From a virus (Duplodnaviria; Heunggongvirae; Uroviricota; Caudoviricetes): a stretch of DNA of 11,227 bases. The translations under genes were made by a program, and so were the position numbers. Below are positions 3,015-11,227 of the stretch, piece by piece. The notes under the pieces are model-generated. The model saw only the letters and a program-made list of their open reading frames with translations, ran no database searches and had not been told where the DNA came from. Location of the stretch: IMG/VR virus record IMGVR_UViG_2913157538_000006. The stretch is one strand, 5' to 3'. Positions within the stretch are counted from its first letter, which is position 1, and each line of letters opens with the position of its first letter.

Positions 3015-3847
3015 TTGAAGTCATATGAAGTGGAAATCGTTTTCATAAATGACGGCAGCAAAGACGCTACGGAGTCAATCATTAATGCTCTGGCTGTTTC
3101 AGATCCTCTAGTTGTTCCGCTGTCATTTACACGCAACTTTGGTAAAGAACCAGCATTGTTTGCAGGGTTAGACCATGCAACCGGGGATGCGATAATCCCA
3201 ATTGATGTTGACCTGCAAGACCCGATTGAGGTTATTCCTCATCTTATTGAAAAATGGCAAGCAGGTGCTGATATGGTTCTTGCTAAAAGATCTGACCGCT
3301 CAACTGATGGACGCCTGAAGCGAAAAACGGCTGAGTGGTTCTATAAGCTCCACAATAAAATAAGCAATCCTAAAATTGAAGAGAATGTTGGTGATTTCAG
3401 GCTGATGAGCCGTGATGTTGTCGAAAATATTAAACTTATGCCAGAACGAAACCTTTTCATGAAAGGTATTCTGAGCTGGGTAGGAGGAAAGACAGATATT
3501 GTTGAATACGTGCGAGCGGAAAGAATTGCTGGAGATACAAAATTTAATGGATGGAAACTTTGGAATTTAGCACTTGAGGGTATTACAAGCTTTTCCACAT
3601 TCCCTCTTCGCATCTGGACATACATAGGGTTAGTGGTAGCCAGTGTAGCATTTATTTATGGGGCGTGGATGATTTTAGATACTATCATATTTGGAAATGC
3701 TGTTAGGGGATATCCTTCACTACTTGTTTCAATACTGTTTTTAGGTGGAATTCAGATGATTGGAATAGGAGTATTAGGTGAATATATTGGACGCACATAC
3801 ATTGAAACCAAAAAACGCCCGAAATACATCATCAAGAGAGTCAAAAA

Positions 3848-5179
3848 ATGAATAAAGCAATAAAAGTATCATTGTATATATCTTTTGTTTTGATTATTTG
3901 CGCCTTATCTAAAAACATAATGATGTTAAATACATCTGATTTCGGAAGAGCCATTAAGCCATTAATTGAAGACATACCAGCATTTACATATGACTTACCT
4001 TTATTGTATAAATTGAAAGGTCATATTGATTCAATTGATAGCTATGAGTATATAAGTTCATATAGTTATATTTTGTATACATACGTCCTGTTTATTAGCA
4101 TTTTTACTGAATATCTTGATGCTAGGGTGTTATCGTTATTTCTAAAAGTAATATATATTTATTCATTATATGCGATATTTACTTCATATATAAAAACAGA
4201 AAGGTATGTAACTTTATTTACATTCTTTATTTTAGCTTTTCTTATGTGTTCTTCATCAACACTGTCAATGTTTGCATCATTCTATCAAGAGCAAATAGTT
4301 ATAATTTTCCTTCCATTTTTGGTGTATTCATTAACATGCAAAAACAATAAATCTATGCTTTTGCTATTTTTTTCGTTGCTAATAATATCTACTGCTAAAA
4401 ATCAATTTATATTAACCCCACTAATAGTGTATTCATATTATATTTTTTTTGATAGACACAAACTAATTATTAAATCTGTAATATGCGTGGTGTGCTTGCT
4501 TGCGTCAATATTTGCAATATCTTATTCAAAAGGTGTTGTTGAATTAAATAAGTACCATGCAACATACTTCGGTAGTTATCTTTATATGAAAAACAACGGG
4601 TATAAAATGCCATCGTATGTTGATGATAAGTGTGTTGGGTTAGATGCCTGGGGTAATAAATTCGACATATCATTTGGCGCAACCCCAACAGAAGTTGGAA
4701 CGGAATGTTTCGAATCTCATAAAGATGAAACGTTTTCGAATGCACTCTTTTTATTGGTTAGCAAACCAAGCACCATCTTCAAACTTCCATTTGATGATGG
4801 TGTGATGTCTCAGTATAAAGAAAATTATTTCCATGTATATAAAAAACTACACGTAATATATGGAGAATCAAACATACTAACGACTATTACTAACATAAAA
4901 GACAATATATTTAAAAACATTAGATTTATATCATTGTTATTATTTTTTATTGCTTCTATTTTTATTAGAAATAATAAAATAAAGGCATCTTTATTTGTAG
5001 TATCTCTTTTTGGAATATCTCAATTTTATGTGTCATTTTTCGGGGAAGGATATAGAGATTTAAGCAAGCATTTATTTGGAATGTATTTTTCGTTCGACCT
5101 TTGCTTATACATAACAGTCGTTTTTTTAATTTATAAAATAATTCAAAGAAATCAAGACAATAGCGATGTAAAGCACTAA
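3848..5179 (+). CDS. yfdI: Serotype-specific O-antigen glucosyltransferase (GtrS-type polytopic membrane protein)
   Basis: 443-aa strongly hydrophobic, AT-rich ORF with multiple membrane spans and a larger soluble segment. Third gene of a gtr cassette, with ATGA overlap to gtrB at 3848-3851. The symbol is the recalled K-12 locus name. Confidence 0.82.
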
Positions 5180-7104: not shown

Positions 7105-7598
7105 TAAGCCCCCACGTAATTCCCTGAGAGATACCACTCTTCACCTGATGCAGCCCGCTTACTGCTTTTCCGTAAACACCGTTCACGACGCGCCAGAAAA
7201 TTGTTTCGTTCTGGCTGGGAGTGGCTTTCACGGAATGCCGCCATCCACACCGTTGCAGCACGACGGTATAAGCCCCTGGACTCCAGTTCTTCCGCCTGGC
7301 GGGTCAGGCACAAAATCACCCGCGGGTCGTTAGTGCCGACATAGAAATTGCGCACAGGTCTGGTTTCACGAACTGGTTGTGGTTCCGGATCCTGCGCTCT
7401 CTCAGTCAGGCGCGGGAAATGTCTGTGTGTATCTCCTTCACAACGGTGAGCCACACGCCCACTCTGACGTAACTTGCTTGCTGACTGCAGAACGCGCTGC
7501 CGTGAGTAACCTGCAAAAGCATCCGCAATGTCTCCGGAAGTACAGCCCGGATGGGCTTCAATGAATTTCTGAACGTCATTCAAAAGACTCATGCTCAC
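7104..7598 (-). CDS. yfdN: Hypothetical prophage protein with a PerC-like C-terminal region
   Basis: 164-aa ORF. The segment AEELESRGLYRRAATVWMAAFRESHSQPERNNFLARRERCL resembles the GLWRRAA..W core of PerC/Pch-type regulators as I recall it; this is unverified. Start is ambiguous: GTG at 7598 (AGGA 8 nt upstream) or ATG at 7592. Confidence 0.75.
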   Translation of the reverse strand: MSMSLLNDVQKFIEAHPGCTSGDIADAFAGYSRQRVLQSASKLRQSGRVAHRCEGDTHRHFPRLTERAQDPEPQPVRETRPVRNFYVGTNDPRVILCLTRQAEELESRGLYRRAATVWMAAFRESHSQPERNNFLARRERCLRKSSKRAASGEEWYLSGNYVGA

Positions 7599-7963
7599 CC
7601 CCTGAATCCTGCCGGGATCTGGCTGTAGTCCACATTGTCGTAACTGGCTTTGAAGTACGGGTCTTCGCGTTTTTCTGTGTACGTGCTGACGGACGGCGAT
7701 AAGCGCAGGGAAAGCTCATCCCATTTTTCCCGCAGCTTCGACGGGCTGAGCACGTTACGGCACCAGAACGGATCGCGGCTGACGCGGCTGTACATCTCGC
7801 AGATTTGTTTGTGAGTACGACCATCCTGCACACACATCAGGCGAATTTCGTTTGCCCAGGCTGTCCAGTTCGGTTCTTTGGGACGAACCACCTCGCCGTC
7901 ACATTCGGCGGCCTGCTCGTACAGGGCGATGATTTTTTTCCAGAGCCACTGTGCGCAGGTCAA
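7595..7963 (-). pseudogene. yfdO: Replication initiator (lambda O-like) C-terminal fragment; frame open upstream through the iteron array
   Basis: 122 codons from a TTG at 7963. The same frame has no stop between 8455 and 7598 and no ATG/GTG/TTG upstream of 7963. The O-like assignment is recalled annotation supported by the embedded iterons, not by a search. Confidence 0.65.
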
Positions 7964-8087
7964 ATCATCCTGCGTTCCCCACTGGCGCTTTTTAGGGCTG
8001 AATACAACCGCATCAGGATGGCGAGTTAAAAAATCCTGTTCATCCGTCTGCGTGTCCGGTTGCGAAGCGTCCGGACGAGAAGGTTTT

Positions 8088-8240
8088 TTATCTGACGGAT
8101 CATGTTTTGATTTTACTGACGGATCCCCGCCAGATTCTGACGGGTGAAAACCCGATTTTTTGCCAGATTTCGACGCATCAAATTTTGACGGGTCAGATTT
8201 TGATGCGTCAGATTTTGACGGGTCAGAGTCTGACAGTTGA
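8088..8240. repeat. Iteron-like direct repeat array (about 8 copies, 15-bp period)
   Basis: Five tandem 15-mers at 8166-8240 (GATTTCGACGCATCA, AATTTTGACGGGTCA, GATTTTGATGCGTCA, GATTTTGACGGGTCA, GAGTCTGACAGTTGA), preceded by three more copies with TGACGG cores at 8093, 8117 and 8138. Confidence 0.75.
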
Positions 8241-8320
8241 GAAAATGCCGCTGCCTGAAGCTTCGCAACGTTAAGCTGATAAACATTCGACGCATTGCGG
8301 TTATGATGAGGAGCAGCAAA

Positions 8321-8683
8321 ATGGCTAGCGAACGCAGTACTGATGTGCAGGCATTTATCGGGGAGCTGGACGGCGGCGTATTTGAAACCAAAATCGGCGC
8401 AGTTCTCAGTGAAGTCGCTTCCGGTGTGATGAACACGAAAACCAAAGGTAAGGTCTCACTCAACCTGGAAATCGAACCATTTGATGAGAACCGTCTGAAA
8501 ATCAAACACAAACTCTCATATGTTCGCCCGACTAACCGTGGGAAAATTTCCGAAGAAGACACCACCGAAACGCCGATGTATGTCAATCGCGGTGGTCGCC
8601 TGACTATTCTGCAGGAAGACCAGGGACAATTACTGACTCTTGCCGGTGAGCCTGACGGAAAACTCCGCGCAGCAGGTCATTAA
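8321..8683 (+). CDS. yfdP: Hypothetical prophage protein
   Basis: 120 aa from the ATG at 8321, with GAGGAG 8 nt upstream. The ORF track starts at an upstream alternative start (8237) that lacks an RBS. No recognisable motif. Confidence 0.75.
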   Translation: MASERSTDVQAFIGELDGGVFETKIGAVLSEVASGVMNTKTKGKVSLNLEIEPFDENRLKIKHKLSYVRPTNRGKISEEDTTETPMYVNRGGRLTILQEDQGQLLTLAGEPDGKLRAAGH

Positions 8684-8748
8684 TATCATTCTTAATTAAC
8701 TAATTATTTATCTCATCACTGAATATCTTAATATAGTGAGGACTTATT

Positions 8749-9573
8749 ATGTCTCAGAACTTAGACGCAACCGCAATTAATCAAATCCATGCCCTTATTT
8801 CTGCTCAGGGTGTTAATGAAATTATCAGTAAGATTGGTGCCGATGCTGTGGCATTGCCTGAGAATTTCCGCATTCATGATCTGGAAAAATTTAATTTAAA
8901 TCGCTTCCGTTTCCGTGGTGCGCTTTCCACTGCCAGCATCGATGACTTTACCCGTTATTCTAAAGATCTTGCAGATGAAGGCACCCGCTGCTTTATCGAT
9001 GCTGATAATATGCGTGCCGTCAGTGTGCTTAACCTGGGTACTATTGATGAACCAGGTCACGCAGATAACACCGCCACTCTCAAACTGAAAAAGACAGCAC
9101 CGTTCTCTGCCCTGTTGTCTGTTAACGGCGAGCGTAACTCCCAGAAATCACTGGCAGAATGGATTGAAGACTGGGCCGACTACCTTGTGGGCTTTGATGC
9201 TAATGGTGACGCCATTCAGGCAACAAAAGCGGCTGCGGCAATCCGTAAAATCACGATTGAAGCAAACCAGACCGCTGATTTTGAAGATAATGACTTCAGC
9301 GGCAAACGCTCCCTGATGGAATCTGTCGAAGCGAAGACCAAAGACATTATGCCAGTGGCATTTGAATTTAAATGCGTTCCGTTTGAAGGTCTGAAAGAAC
9401 GTCCGTTTAAATTACGCCTCAGCATTATCACTGGCGATCGTCCTGTACTGGTTCTGCGCATTATTCAGCTGGAAGCGGTGCAGGAAGATATGGCTAACGA
9501 ATTTCGTGATCTGCTTGTTGAGAAATTCAAAGACAGCAAAGTAGAAACCTTTATTGGTACTTTCACCGCCTGA
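8749..9573 (+). CDS. yfdQ: Hypothetical prophage protein (YfdQ-like; family name recalled as DUF2303, unverified)
   Basis: 274-aa ORF with good coding character and GTGAGGA about 7 nt upstream of the ATG. No catalytic motif recognised. Confidence 0.85.
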
Positions 9574-9585
9574 TTTCATTACTGC

Positions 9586-9607
9586 AAATGCCCCTGCGGG
9601 GGCATTT
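9586..9607. terminator. Stem-loop downstream of yfdQ (weak terminator or RNA stability element)
   Basis: AAATGCCCC (9586-9594), short loop, GGGGCATTT (9599-9607): a 9-bp perfect stem 13 nt after the yfdQ stop. No convincing U-tract follows. Confidence 0.3.
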
Positions 9608-9700
9608 ATGGAAACGTAATTAACTCAATAATCACCGGATGGTGAGGGCTTCCTTTTACCCAAACTCAGCGCGGTGCAGCGCATATACGTGGAGAACAAA

Positions 9701-10237
9701 ATGTCATTTATTAAAACTTTTTCCGGGAAGCATTTTTATTATGACAAGATAAATAAAGACGACATCGTGATTAACGATATCGCGGTTTCCCTTTCAAATA
9801 TCTGCCGCTTTGCCGGTCATCTTTCTCACTTCTACAGTGTCGCCCAACATGCGGTGCTTTGCAGCCAGCTGGTGCCGCAGGAATTTGCTTTTGAAGCATT
9901 AATGCATGATGCAACAGAAGCGTATTGCCAGGACATCCCCGCACCACTGAAACGCCTTCTTCCTGACTATAAACGGATGGAAGAAAAAATAGATGCAGTA
10001 ATCCGTGAGAAATACGGGTTACCTCCTGTTATGAGCACGCCAGTGAAATATGCCGATCTCATTATGCTGGCAACCGAACGCCGTGATCTCGGGCTTGATG
10101 ATGGCTCTTTCTGGCCTGTACTGGAAGGCATCCCGGCAACAGAGATGTTCAACGTGATTCCACTGGCACCGGGTCATGCCTACGGGATGTTTATGGAACG
10201 TTTTAACGATTTATCGGAGTTACGCAAATGCGCATGA
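9701..10237 (+). CDS. yfdR: HD-domain phosphohydrolase (YfbR-like 5'-deoxynucleotidase family)
   Basis: 178 aa from the ATG at 9701 (GGAGA at 9691-9695). HD-domain signature residues are present: H in SVAQHAVL, HD in ALMHDATEAY, and a later D in YADLIMLATERRD. The ORF track starts 9 codons upstream at 9674. Confidence 0.85.
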   Translation: MSFIKTFSGKHFYYDKINKDDIVINDIAVSLSNICRFAGHLSHFYSVAQHAVLCSQLVPQEFAFEALMHDATEAYCQDIPAPLKRLLPDYKRMEEKIDAVIREKYGLPPVMSTPVKYADLIMLATERRDLGLDDGSFWPVLEGIPATEMFNVIPLAPGHAYGMFMERFNDLSELRKCA

Positions 10238-10590
10238 ATGTTTTCGAAATGGAAGGGTTTCTTCGCGGGAAATGTGTACCGCGAGATCTGAAAGTGAACG
10301 AAACAAATGCTGAGTACCTGGTACGTAAATTCGACGCGCTTGAAGCTAAATGTGCGGCACTGGAAAACAAAATAATACCAGTGTCAGCTGAACTGCCACC
10401 AGCAAATGAAAGTGTTCTGTTATTTGATGCTAACGGAGAAGGCTGGCTGATTGGCTGGCGTTCTCTCTGGTACACCTGGGGACAAAAAGAAACCGGAGAA
10501 TGGCAGTGGACATTTCAGGTTGGGGACCTTGAAAACGTCAATATCACTCACTGGGCAGTAATGCCAAAAGCACCGGAGGCTGGAGCATAA
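10228..10590 (+). CDS. yfdS: Hypothetical prophage protein (C-terminal motif reminiscent of DUF551-type phage proteins)
   Basis: 120 aa with GGAG 8 nt upstream. Overlaps the yfdR 3' end by 10 nt. Ends ... NITHWAVMPKAPEAGA; the domain assignment is recalled, not searched. Confidence 0.82.
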   Translation: MRMNVFEMEGFLRGKCVPRDLKVNETNAEYLVRKFDALEAKCAALENKIIPVSAELPPANESVLLFDANGEGWLIGWRSLWYTWGQKETGEWQWTFQVGDLENVNITHWAVMPKAPEAGA

Positions 10591-10895
10591 TGACCACATT
10601 TACCAATAAAGAACTGATTAAAGAAATCAAAGAACGAATCAGCAGCCTAGAGGTTCGAGACGATATTGAGCGCCGTGCTTATGAAATCGCACTCGTATCT
10701 CTGGAAGTAGAGCCAGATGAACGCGAAGCCTATGAATTATTCATGGAAAAGCGTTTCGGTGACTTAGTAGATCGTCGGAGAGCAAAAAACGGCGATAACG
10801 AATACATGGCATGGGATATGACTCTCGGTTGGATCATCTGGCAGCAACGAGCTGGTATCCATTTTTCAACAATGTCACAACAAGAGGTGAAATAA
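10590..10895 (+). CDS. yfdT: Hypothetical prophage protein
   Basis: 101 aa. Start overlaps the yfdS stop (TAATG at 10588-10592) with GGAGG/GGAG just upstream, indicating translational coupling. Confidence 0.82.
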   Translation: MTTFTNKELIKEIKERISSLEVRDDIERRAYEIALVSLEVEPDEREAYELFMEKRFGDLVDRRRAKNGDNEYMAWDMTLGWIIWQQRAGIHFSTMSQQEVK

Positions 10896-10991
10896 TAGAG
10901 CCATACAGCCTCACACTCGATGAGGCCTGTCAGTTTCTTAAAATATCCTGATCTACCATCGCCGTCATAGAGCGTATTTTTATTACCTGAT

Positions 10992-11007
10992 TTGCAGGTT
11001 CGATTCC
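10992..11007 (+). other. tRNA T-arm-like 16-mer (TTGCAGGTTCGATTCC), not a complete tRNA
   Basis: Contains the canonical T-loop GGTTCGATTCC preceded by TTGCA. The following bases (CTATTCGG) cannot form the complementary T-stem. It matches my recollection of the tRNA-Arg (argW) T-arm up to the base before the 3' terminal segment. Confidence 0.45.
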
Positions 11008-11026
11008 CTATTCGGAGATAGCACTC

Positions 11027-11227
11027 ATGCAACACGAACTACAGCCTGATTCACTGGTTGATTTGAAATTCATCATGGCTGATACTGGCTTTGGTAAAAC
11101 CTTCATCTATGACCGGATTAAGTCAGGCGACCTGCCAAAAGCCAAAGTTATCCACGGGCGAGCAAGATGGTTATATCGTGACCATTGTGAATTCAAAAAT
11201 AAGCTCTTAAGCCGCGCCAATGGGTAA
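11027..11227 (+). CDS. torI: Excisionase / recombination directionality factor (Tor inhibition protein)
   Basis: 66 aa (MQHELQPDSLVDLKFIMADTGFGKTFIYDRIKSGDLPKAKVIHGRARWLYRDHCEFKNKLLSRANG), a small basic winged-helix protein typical of Xis-type factors, with GGAGA about 9 nt upstream. Sits at the end of the element opposite the integrase. Confidence 0.88.
   Translation: MQHELQPDSLVDLKFIMADTGFGKTFIYDRIKSGDLPKAKVIHGRARWLYRDHCEFKNKLLSRANG

What the first reader, a model, noticed from the sequence alone, without database searches (positions are those of the whole stretch)
8321..10895. yfdP-yfdQ-yfdR-yfdS-yfdT: compact plus-strand block of five small prophage genes built around an HD-domain hydrolase
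Five genes run in one direction, the last three with overlapping or abutting start/stop codons (10-nt overlap between yfdR and yfdS, TAATG between yfdS and yfdT), and each has its own Shine-Dalgarno sequence. Only YfdR has a recognisable catalytic signature (HD phosphohydrolase); the other four have no assignable function from sequence. The block sits divergent from the replication-initiator remnant, where lambdoid phages place early host-takeover or recombination functions. My recollection is that overexpression of the yfdQ-yfdT cluster has been reported to interfere with chromosomal replication initiation and that YfdR interacts with DnaA; I cannot cite or verify this here. Mechanism and the roles of YfdP, YfdQ, YfdS and YfdT remain open.
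Basis: partly seen in the sequence, partly recalled or inferred. Interest (0 to 1): 0.55.

Follow-up and report, generated by a model that had tools for sequence, protein, structure and literature searches.

The report
Known K-12 prophage early-operon remnant yfdPQRST
This is the already described yfdP-yfdT gene block of the defective E. coli K-12 prophage CPS-53, a beheaded phage early operon. One product, YfdR, is published to bind the host replication initiator DnaA, and the two leading genes form a widespread phage gene pair whose function is still unknown.

Summary
The window is E. coli K-12 prophage CPS-53/KpLE1, and yfdP, yfdQ, yfdR, yfdS and yfdT lie exactly where stated, with the stated overlaps and ribosome-binding sites. 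Noguchi & Katayama 2016 showed that YfdR binds DnaA domain I, and that multicopy yfdQ + yfdR + (yfdS or yfdT) inhibits initiation at oriC.

The block is therefore already known. What I add:
- The 2.65-kb block is 97-98% identical to the early-left operon (cI to xis-int) of live phages such as SfV, SfIV and Kati. In K-12 a deletion ending about 19 nt before yfdP removed its native promoter and repressor.
- The conserved core is the yfdP-yfdQ pair, not the HD hydrolase. The pair is adjacent in 63 of 63 complete loci, often beside RecT/Erf, exonuclease and SSB genes. yfdR follows in about half of the loci. yfdS and yfdT are local mosaic add-ons.
- The hairpin after yfdQ is conserved, with covarying stems. 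It separates yfdPQ from yfdRST.
- A Xanthomonas-phage YfdQ homologue has a solved structure (PDB 9o7m, 36 chains) for which I found no paper.

YfdP, YfdQ and YfdT have no assignable fold or function; YfdS carries only DUF551, a domain of unknown function.

The parts
7595..8302 (-). yfdO' pseudogene: the C-terminal two-thirds of an O-family phage replication gene. It ends at the deletion junction that beheads the yfdP operon.
   Evidence: RefSeq annotates it as a pseudogene missing its N-terminus. The frame is open throughout. It is 99% identical to the O-family or primosomal gene of phages Kati, SfII and SfIV.
8164..8238 (.). Array of 15-bp-period repeats (CAGATTTTGACGGGT). These are the published SrsR (YgfI) boxes upstream of yfdP, and probably the former ori iterons inside the O-like gene.
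   Evidence: the repeat finder family D1. Translated, the repeats give DPSKSDASKS... within the yfdO' frame. SrsR footprint and the strongest gSELEX peak, with activation of yfdONMLK and yfdPQ (PMC9181523).
8302..8320 (+). The only native upstream sequence retained by yfdP (the GAGGAG Shine-Dalgarno). Homology to SfV and Kati begins here, at the deletion junction.
   Evidence: Three-way DNA alignment. The megablast match to phages starts at query base 66, which is window 8302.
8321..8683 (+). yfdP (120 aa), Pfam PF27127 'YfdP'. It is the obligate upstream partner of yfdQ.
   Evidence: PHROG 204, E = 7e-49. PF27127 tags. hhalign gives 99% probability to the ORF upstream of DUF2303 in Xanthomonas phage CP2 and Vibrio phage 44E38.1. 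Adjacent to yfdQ in 63/63 complete loci.
8749..9573 (+). yfdQ (274 aa), DUF2303/YfdQ family. Published as required for multicopy inhibition of initiation.
   Evidence: Pfam DUF2303, E = 4e-93. PDB 9o7m 'YfdQ Protein', E = 2e-44, 36 chains. The family has 3347 clusters, all single-domain among the best 150 listed. Genetic requirement from PMC4776307.
9586..9607 (+). Conserved terminator-like hairpin (AAATGCCCC-TGCG-GGGGCATTT) between yfdQ and yfdR.
   Evidence: -17.5 kcal/mol, z = -3.2. In 16 diverse loci 91% of cells are paired, 6 of 8 pairs show compensatory change, and the covariation score is 0.54 against 0.27 shuffled and 0.07-0.16 slid.
9701..10237 (+). yfdR (178 aa), an HD-domain 5'-deoxynucleotidase-like protein. 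Published to bind DnaA domain I.
   Evidence: PHROG 318, E = 1.5e-109. PDB 2gz4, E = 1e-13. H50, H69, D70, E73, D78 and D119 are invariant. DnaA binding from PMC4776307.
10228..10590 (+). yfdS (120 aa): an N-terminal coiled-coil-like segment plus a C-terminal DUF551 domain ('EaE'-type). Overlaps yfdR by 10 nt.
   Evidence: Pfam DUF551 at 22.2 bits against a cut-off of 22.0, residues 50-117. PHROG 583. The only PDB matches are weak ones to coiled-coil peptides. Annotated as EaE in PhiR40_1.
10590..10895 (+). yfdT (101 aa), a mosaic protein. Its first 42 residues are shared with a 269-aa 'Ea22' protein; the rest is unique.
   Evidence: BLASTP gives 81% identity over residues 1-42 only. PHROG 660. 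In Stx2c, cdtI and PhiR40 phages the DNA match stops about 125 nt into yfdT.
10811..10951 (+). ypdJ ORF (46 aa), the N-terminal remnant of an SfV-type xis. Homology to SfV-type phages ends at about 10948, which marks the right-hand boundary of the block.
   Evidence: The ORF is. The phage match extends to query base 2712, which is window 10948. In SfV, xis overlaps the end of orf28.

Best explanation
**What it is.** The block is the surviving part of the early-left (pL-type) operon of an SfV/SfIV/Kati-like temperate phage, fixed in the defective K-12 prophage CPS-53. It has three layers.

1. **yfdP-yfdQ.** This is an obligate two-gene cassette found in many gamma-proteobacterial phages, usually beside the recombination and replication genes. 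It ends at a conserved terminator-like hairpin. Its biochemical role is unknown. YfdQ is a standalone acidic protein, and a homologue crystallised or imaged as 36 copies.
2. **yfdR.** This is an intact HD-domain phosphohydrolase of the 5'-deoxynucleotidase kind. According to published biochemistry it also docks on DnaA domain I at Phe46, competes with DiaA and DnaB, and so lowers initiation at oriC when supplied together with YfdQ and YfdS or YfdT.
3. **yfdS and yfdT.** These are translationally coupled, mosaic, acidic Ea22/EaE-class proteins that vary between phages.

**Inferred native role.** Early in lytic growth the phage reshapes host DNA replication and nucleotide metabolism.

**State in K-12.** A deletion of about 3.4 kb (estimated from SfIV coordinates) removed the phage's own promoter and repressor. 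The residual expression of yfdPQ depends on the host regulator SrsR, which binds the old origin repeats just upstream.

**Shown versus inferred.**
- Shown here: gene identities, synteny, the deletion junction, the P-Q linkage, the hairpin covariation and the HD residues.
- Shown in the literature: DnaA binding, the multicopy phenotype and the SrsR control.
- Inferred: that host-replication inhibition is the native phage function, and that the hairpin terminates transcription.
For: - The window is 100% identical to K-12, with matching annotation.
- The block is 96.8-98% identical to SfV, SfIV, Kati and PhiR29. In SfV the order is cI, orf33, orf32-28, xis, int.
- SfV has an 11/12 sigma-70 promoter just after the cI terminator. 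That region is absent from K-12, where phage homology starts at 8302.
- yfdO' is 99% identical to the O-family gene of SfII, SfIV and Kati.
- YfdP lies directly upstream of YfdQ in 63/63 complete loci. YfdR lies within 300 nt downstream in 31 of 65 loci. YfdS and YfdT occur in 4 of 65.
- Neighbours of the P-Q pair in distant phages are RecT or ERF, YqaJ or PDDEXK exonucleases, AAA_23, RNase_T and SSB.
- The hairpin shows covariation.
- The HD residues are invariant.
- Literature: YfdR binds DnaA domains I-II in a Phe46-dependent way and competes with DiaA and DnaB; the minimal gene set is yfdQ + yfdR + (yfdS or yfdT); extracts inhibit oriC replication in vitro (PMC4776307).
- Literature: SrsR footprints on the repeats and activates yfdPQ (PMC9181523).
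- Literature: YfdQ overproduction triggers plaque formation by a co-resident phage (bioRxiv 10.1101/413146).
Against: - Deleting yfdQRST does not change initiation or hydroxyurea resistance, and the authors themselves allow that the multicopy effect could be an overexpression artefact.
- About half of the P-Q cassettes have no YfdR nearby, so P-Q must have a role independent of DnaA and YfdR.
- The hairpin's 3' tail has only four U in eight bases and fails the simple terminator scan.
- No fold or profile match gives YfdP or YfdQ a biochemical activity.
Confidence: 0.6

Rival explanations
1. Domesticated host stress module. K-12 retains the genes because they help the cell survive oxidative or other stress in stationary phase under SrsR control, for example by slowing initiation when DNA is damaged. 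The phage origin would then be only history.
For: - Deleting CPS-53 or yfdS reduces survival of 30 mM H2O2 (PMC3105296).
- The strongest SrsR site in the genome lies upstream of yfdP, and SrsR raises yfdPQ mRNA (PMC9181523).
- A yfdQ deletion is reported as weakly MMS- and H2O2-sensitive (cited in PMC4776307).
- The block covers at least 80% of the query in 1198 of 5426 complete E. coli genomes.
Against: - The block is 97-98% identical to that of live phages, so its wide occurrence reflects phage carriage and not host fixation.
- The SrsR boxes lie inside the coding frame of the intact O-family gene of those phages, which suggests fortuitous or recently acquired binding.
- The H2O2 phenotype is also given by yfdK and yfdO, which lie on the other operon.
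- The yfdQRST deletion has no initiation phenotype.
Confidence: 0.2
2. YfdP-YfdQ is an accessory of phage homologous recombination or DNA-end metabolism. For example, it could be an oligomeric DNA- or protein-binding factor that works with RecT or Erf, the exonuclease and SSB. On this view the DnaA effect is a side activity of the neighbouring YfdR.
For: - The pair sits directly beside RecT or ERF plus exonuclease and/or SSB genes in about 6 of the 14 distinct phage or metagenome contexts whose neighbours I inspected.
- In SfV-type and ST64B/LLS-type phages the pair occupies the early-left operon in the absence of any Rec module (PMC12315714).
- The yfdQ mutant is MMS-sensitive (cited).
- PDB 9o7m holds 36 YfdQ chains, and chain IDs A and B belong to something that is neither YfdQ, YfdP nor CP2 ORF36.
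Against: - The YfdQ profile shows no similarity to ERF or RecT.
- There is no whole-fold match in the PDB.
- YfdQ is acidic (pI 5.0, net charge -10).
- The cassette co-occurs with complete Rec modules, so it is not a substitute recombinase. The same argument is made in PMC12315714.
- YfdQRST did not bind oriC DNA in pull-downs.
Confidence: 0.25
3. The genes are decaying prophage cargo with no present function in K-12. On this view the published phenotypes are overexpression or polar artefacts.
For: - The native promoter has been deleted.
- The flanking genes are pseudogenes: yfdO', yfdM', ypdJ and tfaS'.
- The deletion has no replication phenotype, and the authors add their own caveat.
Against: - All five ORFs are intact and essentially identical to those of plaque-forming phages.
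- yfdPQ mRNA is detected in exponential phase.
- YfdR-DnaA binding is specific to domain I and Phe46.
- Frameshift controls show the proteins are needed for the multicopy effect.
Confidence: 0.15

Closest known systems
orf32-orf28 of Shigella phage SfV (also SfIV, Escherichia phages Kati and PhiR29)
   Same: The same five genes in the same order and with the same overlaps, 96.8-98% DNA identity, and followed by xis.
   Different: In the phages the block lies downstream of cI, a pL-like promoter and orf33, and is followed by intact xis-int. K-12 has lost everything upstream of -19 and keeps only an xis stub (ypdJ) before torI.
Initiation inhibitors that target DnaA: lambda P, B. subtilis SirA, and DiaA or Dps as domain-I ligands (as discussed in PMC4776307)
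   Same: YfdR binds DnaA and lowers initiation. Like SirA and DiaA it uses the domain-I Phe46 surface, and like lambda P it is phage-encoded.
   Different: YfdR is an HD-fold enzyme unrelated to any of these. Lambda P binds domain III. YfdR needs YfdQ plus YfdS or YfdT in vivo, and on its own it is only a moderate competitor.
E. coli YfbR (HD-domain 5'-deoxynucleotidase) and Agrobacterium Atu1052 (PDB 2gz4)
   Same: The H...HD...D metal-binding motif plus the E73 and D78 equivalents are conserved. Weak YfbR-like Pfam and NCBIfam hits. 2gz4 matches at E = 1e-13 over the whole length.
   Different: YfdR scores far below the YfbR equivalog cut-off (19.9 against 122 bits) and below the Pfam gathering scores. 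[quoted passage not shown] It belongs to the phage family PHROG 318.
Lambda Ea22 / EaE class of mosaic early-left proteins
   Same: YfdT shares its first 42 residues with a 269-aa Ea22-annotated protein. YfdS carries DUF551, a portable C-terminal domain also found in the Ea22_V2 variant (PMC10834534). The proteins are acidic and lie just upstream of xis.
   Different: Neither protein hits the Pfam Ead/Ea22 model. YfdT lacks the long central coiled coil. No pro-lysogenic phenotype has been tested.
The yfdP / yfdQ / yfbR-like trio of lambdoid early-left operons (ST64B gp37-35, LLS gp39-37; PMC12315714)
   Same: The same three families in the same order. That paper already notes they are common and of unknown function (ST64B locus).
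   Different: Here the linkage is quantified. P-Q is invariant and extends to virulent-type Xanthomonas and Vibrio phages without the HD gene, and a conserved hairpin separates Q from R.

Membership tests
HD-domain phosphohydrolase superfamily (YfdR) | H...HD...D metal-ligand motif | tested here: met
   H50, H69-D70 and D119 (plus E73 and D78) are invariant among YfdR, ST64B Sb35, the Pseudomonas phage KT1 homologue and Atu1052/2gz4.
HD-domain phosphohydrolase superfamily (YfdR) | Score above the curated Pfam gathering threshold for an HD family | tested here: not met
   YfbR-like scores 24.3 bits against 25.9, and HD_3 scores 17.0 against 22.5. Full-length homology to the solved HD protein 2gz4 (E = 1e-13) and to PHROG 318 (E = 1.5e-109) supports the fold all the same.
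YfbR 5'-deoxynucleotidase equivalog (NCBIfam NF003009) | Score above the equivalog cut-off | tested here: not met
   19.9 bits against a cut-off of 122. YfdR is a distinct phage subfamily, not a YfbR orthologue.
YfbR 5'-deoxynucleotidase equivalog (NCBIfam NF003009) | dNMP phosphatase activity | not testable with these tools
DUF2303 / YfdQ family (PF10065) | Full-length match above the gathering score | tested here: met
   311.9 bits against 26.6, covering residues 7-272 of 274.
YfdP family (PF27127) | Family match, and position immediately upstream of a DUF2303 gene | tested here: met
   The model is absent from the local Pfam copy (0 hits), but precomputed PF27127 tags sit on all YfdP homologues. 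hhalign gives 99% probability to distant members. Adjacent in 63/63 complete loci.
DUF551 (PF04448) for YfdS | Match above the gathering score | tested here: met
   22.2 bits against 22.0, which is borderline. Residues 50-117 cover the whole 68-position model.
Ead/Ea22 family for YfdT | Match to the family model or its central coiled coil | tested here: not met
   No Pfam hit. Only the first 42 residues match an Ea22-annotated protein.
Lambdoid early-left (pL) operon | Lies between the cI/pL region and xis-int, on the same strand as both | tested here: met
   This is the gene order in SfV, ST64B and PhiR40_1. In K-12 only the xis-proximal end survives.
Intrinsic (Rho-independent) terminator (hairpin 9586-9607) | G+C-rich stem followed by a U-tract | tested here: inconclusive
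   The stem is strong and covaries. The tail AUUUAUGG has four U in eight bases and is not called by the scan. Termination itself was not measured.
Single-strand annealing proteins (RecT, ERF) for YfdQ | Detectable profile or fold similarity | tested here: not met
Known anti-phage defence systems | Match to a PADLOC model | tested here: not met
   No hits for any of the five proteins.

The most novel reading that the evidence does not exclude
YfdP-YfdQ is a self-contained, widespread phage module that nobody has characterised. It has at least 3347 sequence clusters, is always a pair, and always carries its own terminator-like end in the enterobacterial branch. YfdQ would build a large homo-oligomer (36 copies in PDB 9o7m) that acts on replication or recombination intermediates, or on a host replication factor. 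This would be a new class of phage DNA-metabolism or host-takeover device. It would also explain why YfdR needs YfdQ to shut down oriC.
Probability: 0.3. Interest if true: 0.55.

Novelty: already known. Interest (0 to 1): 0.27.

Why it matters
The block itself is textbook K-12 annotation with a dedicated 2016 paper, so the finding as stated adds nothing new. Two points give it residual value.

First, the P-Q pair is one of the commoner unexplained cassettes in the early operons of gamma-proteobacterial phages. It is genetically required for a DnaA-directed block of host replication, yet it has no fold relative and no published mechanism. A solved structure of a homologue exists, so the question is ripe for experiment.

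Second, the locus shows how a host regulator (SrsR) can end up driving a beheaded phage operon through repeats that were probably the phage's replication-origin iterons.

Tried and rejected
- **Sequence searches of the PDB.** YfdP, YfdS and YfdT gave only chance or coiled-coil hits.
- **Identifying chains A and B of 9o7m.** Searching the PDB with the CP2 YfdP homologue and with CP2 ORF36 found nothing. No paper mentions 9o7m, DUF2303 function, PF10065 or PF27127.
- **Defence and RNA families.** PADLOC gave no hits and Rfam gave nothing credible.
- **First IMG/VR scan.** It returned only near-identical E. coli loci and gave no diversity.
- **Promoter upstream of yfdP.** The sigma-70-like match at 8280-8307 straddles the junction but scores 9/12, no better than the shuffled expectation. 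I do not claim it.
- **Hairpin after yfdT.** Rejected as a terminator (z = -0.4, and the equivalent sequence lies inside xis in SfV).
- **Hidden recombinase.** The idea that YfdQ is an unrecognised recombinase was rejected (the argument in PMC12315714).
Full report
**Identity of the window.** The 3.2 kb from 8000 to 11227 is 100% identical to E. coli K-12 strains (MG1655, C600, J53 and others). It is annotated there as yfdP, yfdQ, yfdR (5'-deoxynucleotidase), a 'phage protein' (yfdS), yfdT and torI. The whole window runs from intS to torI, so it is the defective prophage CPS-53/KpLE1. It differs from MG1655 only by an IS3 element inside yfdH. That insertion is shared with C600, RV308, NEB Turbo and 55 genomes in all.

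**The observation.** The five ORFs, their coordinates, the 10-nt yfdR/yfdS overlap, the TAATG yfdS/yfdT junction and a Shine-Dalgarno sequence before each start are all present. The ORFs are real genes.
- YfdQ is a full-length DUF2303 protein (E = 4e-93).
- YfdS has a borderline DUF551 domain.
- YfdR gives weak YfbR-like and HD_3 hits.
- All five match PHROG families strongly.
- YfdP belongs to the recent Pfam family PF27127 'YfdP'.

The structure after yfdT is no better than shuffled sequence.

Noguchi and Katayama (Front Microbiol 2016, PMC4776307) isolated yfdQRST as a multicopy suppressor of hda-185. They report the following:
- The minimal gene set is yfdQ + yfdR + (yfdS or yfdT). yfdP is dispensable.
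- The set inhibits initiation in wild-type, dnaAcos, seqA, DARS and diaA backgrounds.
- Of the four proteins, only YfdR binds DnaA. It binds through domains I-II and Phe46, and competes moderately with DiaA and DnaB.
- Extracts inhibit oriC replication in vitro.
- Deleting the genes has no initiation phenotype, and the authors concede that the effect might be an overexpression artefact.

Other published phenotypes are these:
- H2O2 sensitivity of a yfdS deletion (PMC3105296).
- Weak MMS and H2O2 sensitivity of a yfdQ deletion (cited).
- Induction of plaques of a co-resident phage when YfdQ is overproduced (bioRxiv 10.1101/413146).

**Where the block comes from.** Window 8302-10948 is 96.8-98% identical to plaque-forming or inducible phages: PhiR29, Kati, SfV, SfIV, and Stx2c and cdtI phages.
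- In SfV the order is cro <- | -> cI, terminator, orf33, terminator, orf32 (yfdP), orf31 (yfdQ), orf30 (yfdR), orf29 (yfdS), orf28 (yfdT), xis, int. This is the position and polarity of a lambdoid early-left operon.
- SfV has an 11/12 sigma-70 promoter immediately after the cI terminator.
- In K-12 the phage-like sequence begins only 19 nt before the yfdP ATG.
- On the other side of that junction lies yfdO' on the minus strand. It is an open frame 99% identical to the C-terminal two-thirds of the O-family replication gene of Kati, SfII and SfIV.
- From SfIV coordinates the deletion is about 3.4 kb. It removed the immunity region, the pL-like promoter and the 5' end of the O-family gene.
- At the right end, homology stops at about 10948 inside the SfV xis gene. 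This leaves the 46-codon ypdJ stub before torI.

**Present regulation in K-12.** Just beyond the junction, at 8164-8238, are four to five 15-bp-period repeats of CAGATTTTGACGGGT. They are in frame within yfdO', where they encode DPSKSDASKSDPSKFDASKS. This is the arrangement of origin iterons inside lambda's O gene; that comparison rests on my own knowledge. Exactly these repeats are the footprinted SrsR (YgfI) boxes and the strongest gSELEX peak in the K-12 genome. SrsR activates the 'yfdONMLK' and 'yfdPQ' operons (PMC9181523).

**What is conserved and what is not.** I examined 65 loci that encode a YfdQ homologue:
- the window itself;
- seven phages from GenBank: SfV, ST64B, Xanthomonas CP2, Vibrio 44E38.1, D81 and PGB, and Pseudomonas KT1;
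- ten viral or metagenomic contigs;
- 47 loci from a scan of one genome per species (GTDB).

A YfdP homologue lies directly upstream on the same strand in all 63 loci where the region is complete, with a gap of 0-183 nt. A YfdR homologue lies within 300 nt downstream in 31 loci. YfdS and YfdT occur only in the four E. coli, Shigella and SfV-type loci. The P-Q linkage also holds at 31-43% YfdQ identity, with hhalign probability of 99% for the YfdP partner and PF27127 tags.

In these distant phages the pair sits beside recombination and replication genes:
- Erf, exonuclease, endonuclease and SSB in CP2.
- Annealing protein, exonuclease, RNase T and SSB in Vibrio 44E38.1.
- RecT, YqaJ or PDDEXK, AAA_23, RNase_T, ERF and SSB in the metagenomic contigs.

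The block is therefore not built around the HD enzyme. It is a P-Q cassette to which an HD enzyme is often appended, plus two lineage-specific genes. A 2025 paper had already remarked that the yfdP / yfdQ / yfbR-like trio is common in lambdoid early-left operons, with or without a Rec module, and is probably not a hidden recombinase (PMC12315714).

**The hairpin.** Immediately after the yfdQ stop codon, loci from Escherichia, Salmonella phage ST64B, Buttiauxella, Kosakonia, Yersinia, Serratia, Proteus, Providencia, Morganella, Xenorhabdus and others all carry a stem-loop. Its form is A-rich flank, G+C stem, then UUU(A)U, but the stem sequences differ. On a 16-sequence alignment:

| Measure | Observed | Shuffled | 3' partner slid by 1-3 columns |
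|---|---|---|---|
| Cells forming a standard pair | 91% | 77% | 39-57% |
| Covariation score | 0.54 | 0.27 | 0.07-0.16 |

Six of the eight pairs show compensatory changes. This is a real, selected structure. Its form and position fit an intrinsic terminator or attenuator that separates yfdPQ from yfdRST, in line with the 'yfdPQ operon' of the SrsR paper. The U-tract is short and the simple scan does not call it, so termination remains an inference.

**The individual proteins.**
- **YfdR.** It keeps every HD-motif residue (H50, H69, D70, D119, plus E73 and D78) shared with ST64B Sb35, a Pseudomonas phage homologue and the solved HD protein Atu1052 (PDB 2gz4; E = 1e-13). It is far below the YfbR equivalog cut-off. 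It belongs to a phage subfamily, PHROG 318, annotated as a dNMP phosphatase.
- **PDB 9o7m.** The PDB sequence file contains 9o7m, 'YfdQ Protein', 274 aa, 36 chains, E = 2e-44 to YfdQ. The sequence is 98.8% identical to a protein of CP2-like Xanthomonas phages. I found no paper for it. Its first listed YfdQ chain is C. Chains A and B are not a YfdP homologue or CP2 ORF36, and what they are is unknown.
- **YfdP.** The model (pLDDT 68.5) is a long helix followed by a beta-meander and a disordered tail, with no convincing relative.
- **YfdS.** It is a short coiled-coil-like segment plus DUF551, a portable domain also found on an Ea22 variant.
- **YfdT.** It shares only its first 42 residues (81% identity) with a 269-aa Ea22-annotated protein, which occupies the same slot in PhiR40_1.
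- None of the five proteins matches a PADLOC defence model.

**Most likely mechanism.** The best-supported account is a phage early operon for manipulating host DNA replication and nucleotide metabolism. YfdR uses an HD-fold body to sit on the DnaA domain-I surface that DiaA and DnaB need. YfdQ, and YfdS or YfdT, are required in vivo in a way not yet understood. YfdP-YfdQ has an additional, YfdR-independent role linked to the recombination and replication gene neighbourhood. In K-12 the operon is beheaded and runs at a low level under SrsR. I put 0.6 on this composite: near certainty for identity and origin, about even odds that host-replication inhibition is the native function. The rivals are domestication as a stress module, a recombination accessory, and inert cargo with overexpression artefacts. 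They are set out with their tests in the fields above.

**Verdict.** The feature is already known and annotated. The modest additions here are the deletion junction, the P-Q obligate pairing, the covarying hairpin, the iteron-like nature of the SrsR boxes, and the pointer to an unpublished homologue structure. Interest is low to moderate.

Noticed in passing
window ~1690-2990 (ORFs 1813-2121 and 2118-2984): An IS3 element interrupts yfdH (gtrB-like glucosyltransferase), leaving a 278-codon 3' ORF at 3015-3851. The same insertion is present in 55 K-12-lineage genomes (C600, RV308, GM4792, NEB Turbo) but not in MG1655.
   Followed up: partly
window 8164-8238: The 15-bp-period repeats that the literature calls SrsR boxes lie in frame inside the O-family replication gene remnant. 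They are present in the intact gene of phages Kati, SfII and SfIV, so they are probably the phage's origin iterons, now used (or fortuitously bound) by a host LysR-type regulator.
   Followed up: partly
L002 (phage SfV) 5990-6017: A near-consensus sigma-70 promoter (TTGACA-16-CATAAT) lies directly after the cI terminator. It is the likely pL of this phage group and is missing from K-12.
   Followed up: no
window 10811-10951: The ypdJ ORF overlaps the end of yfdT. It corresponds to the start of the SfV-type xis gene, and phage homology stops at about 10948, just before the unrelated torI excisionase module. This is a second mosaic junction.
   Followed up: partly
L002 6702-7382, L003 1638-2318, L087 4203-4841: In SfV, Kati and ST64B the reading frame of yfdP stays open for about 90-106 codons upstream of the conserved start, and Kati's annotation uses the long form. 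All distant homologues are 115-135 aa, so the extension is probably not translated, but this was not tested.
   Followed up: no
window 9608-9700 and the homologous ST64B region L087 5770-5866: Beyond the terminator-like hairpin, two further small hairpins in the yfdQ-yfdR spacer (CACCGGATGGTG and GCGCGGTGCAGCGC) recur in ST64B with sequence differences. They may be part of a structured leader for yfdR.
   Followed up: no
L004 3933-5468 (phage CP2 ORF36) and L120 6030-7220: In two distant phages the gene after yfdQ is a large protein with a weak DUF1351 match, followed by Erf. This may be another recurring neighbour of the P-Q pair.
   Followed up: no
PDB 9o7m: A solved structure named 'YfdQ Protein' (a CP2-like Xanthomonas phage sequence, 36 chains) is in the PDB sequence file but not in the structure library dated April 2026, and no paper was found in the searchable library.
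   Followed up: partly
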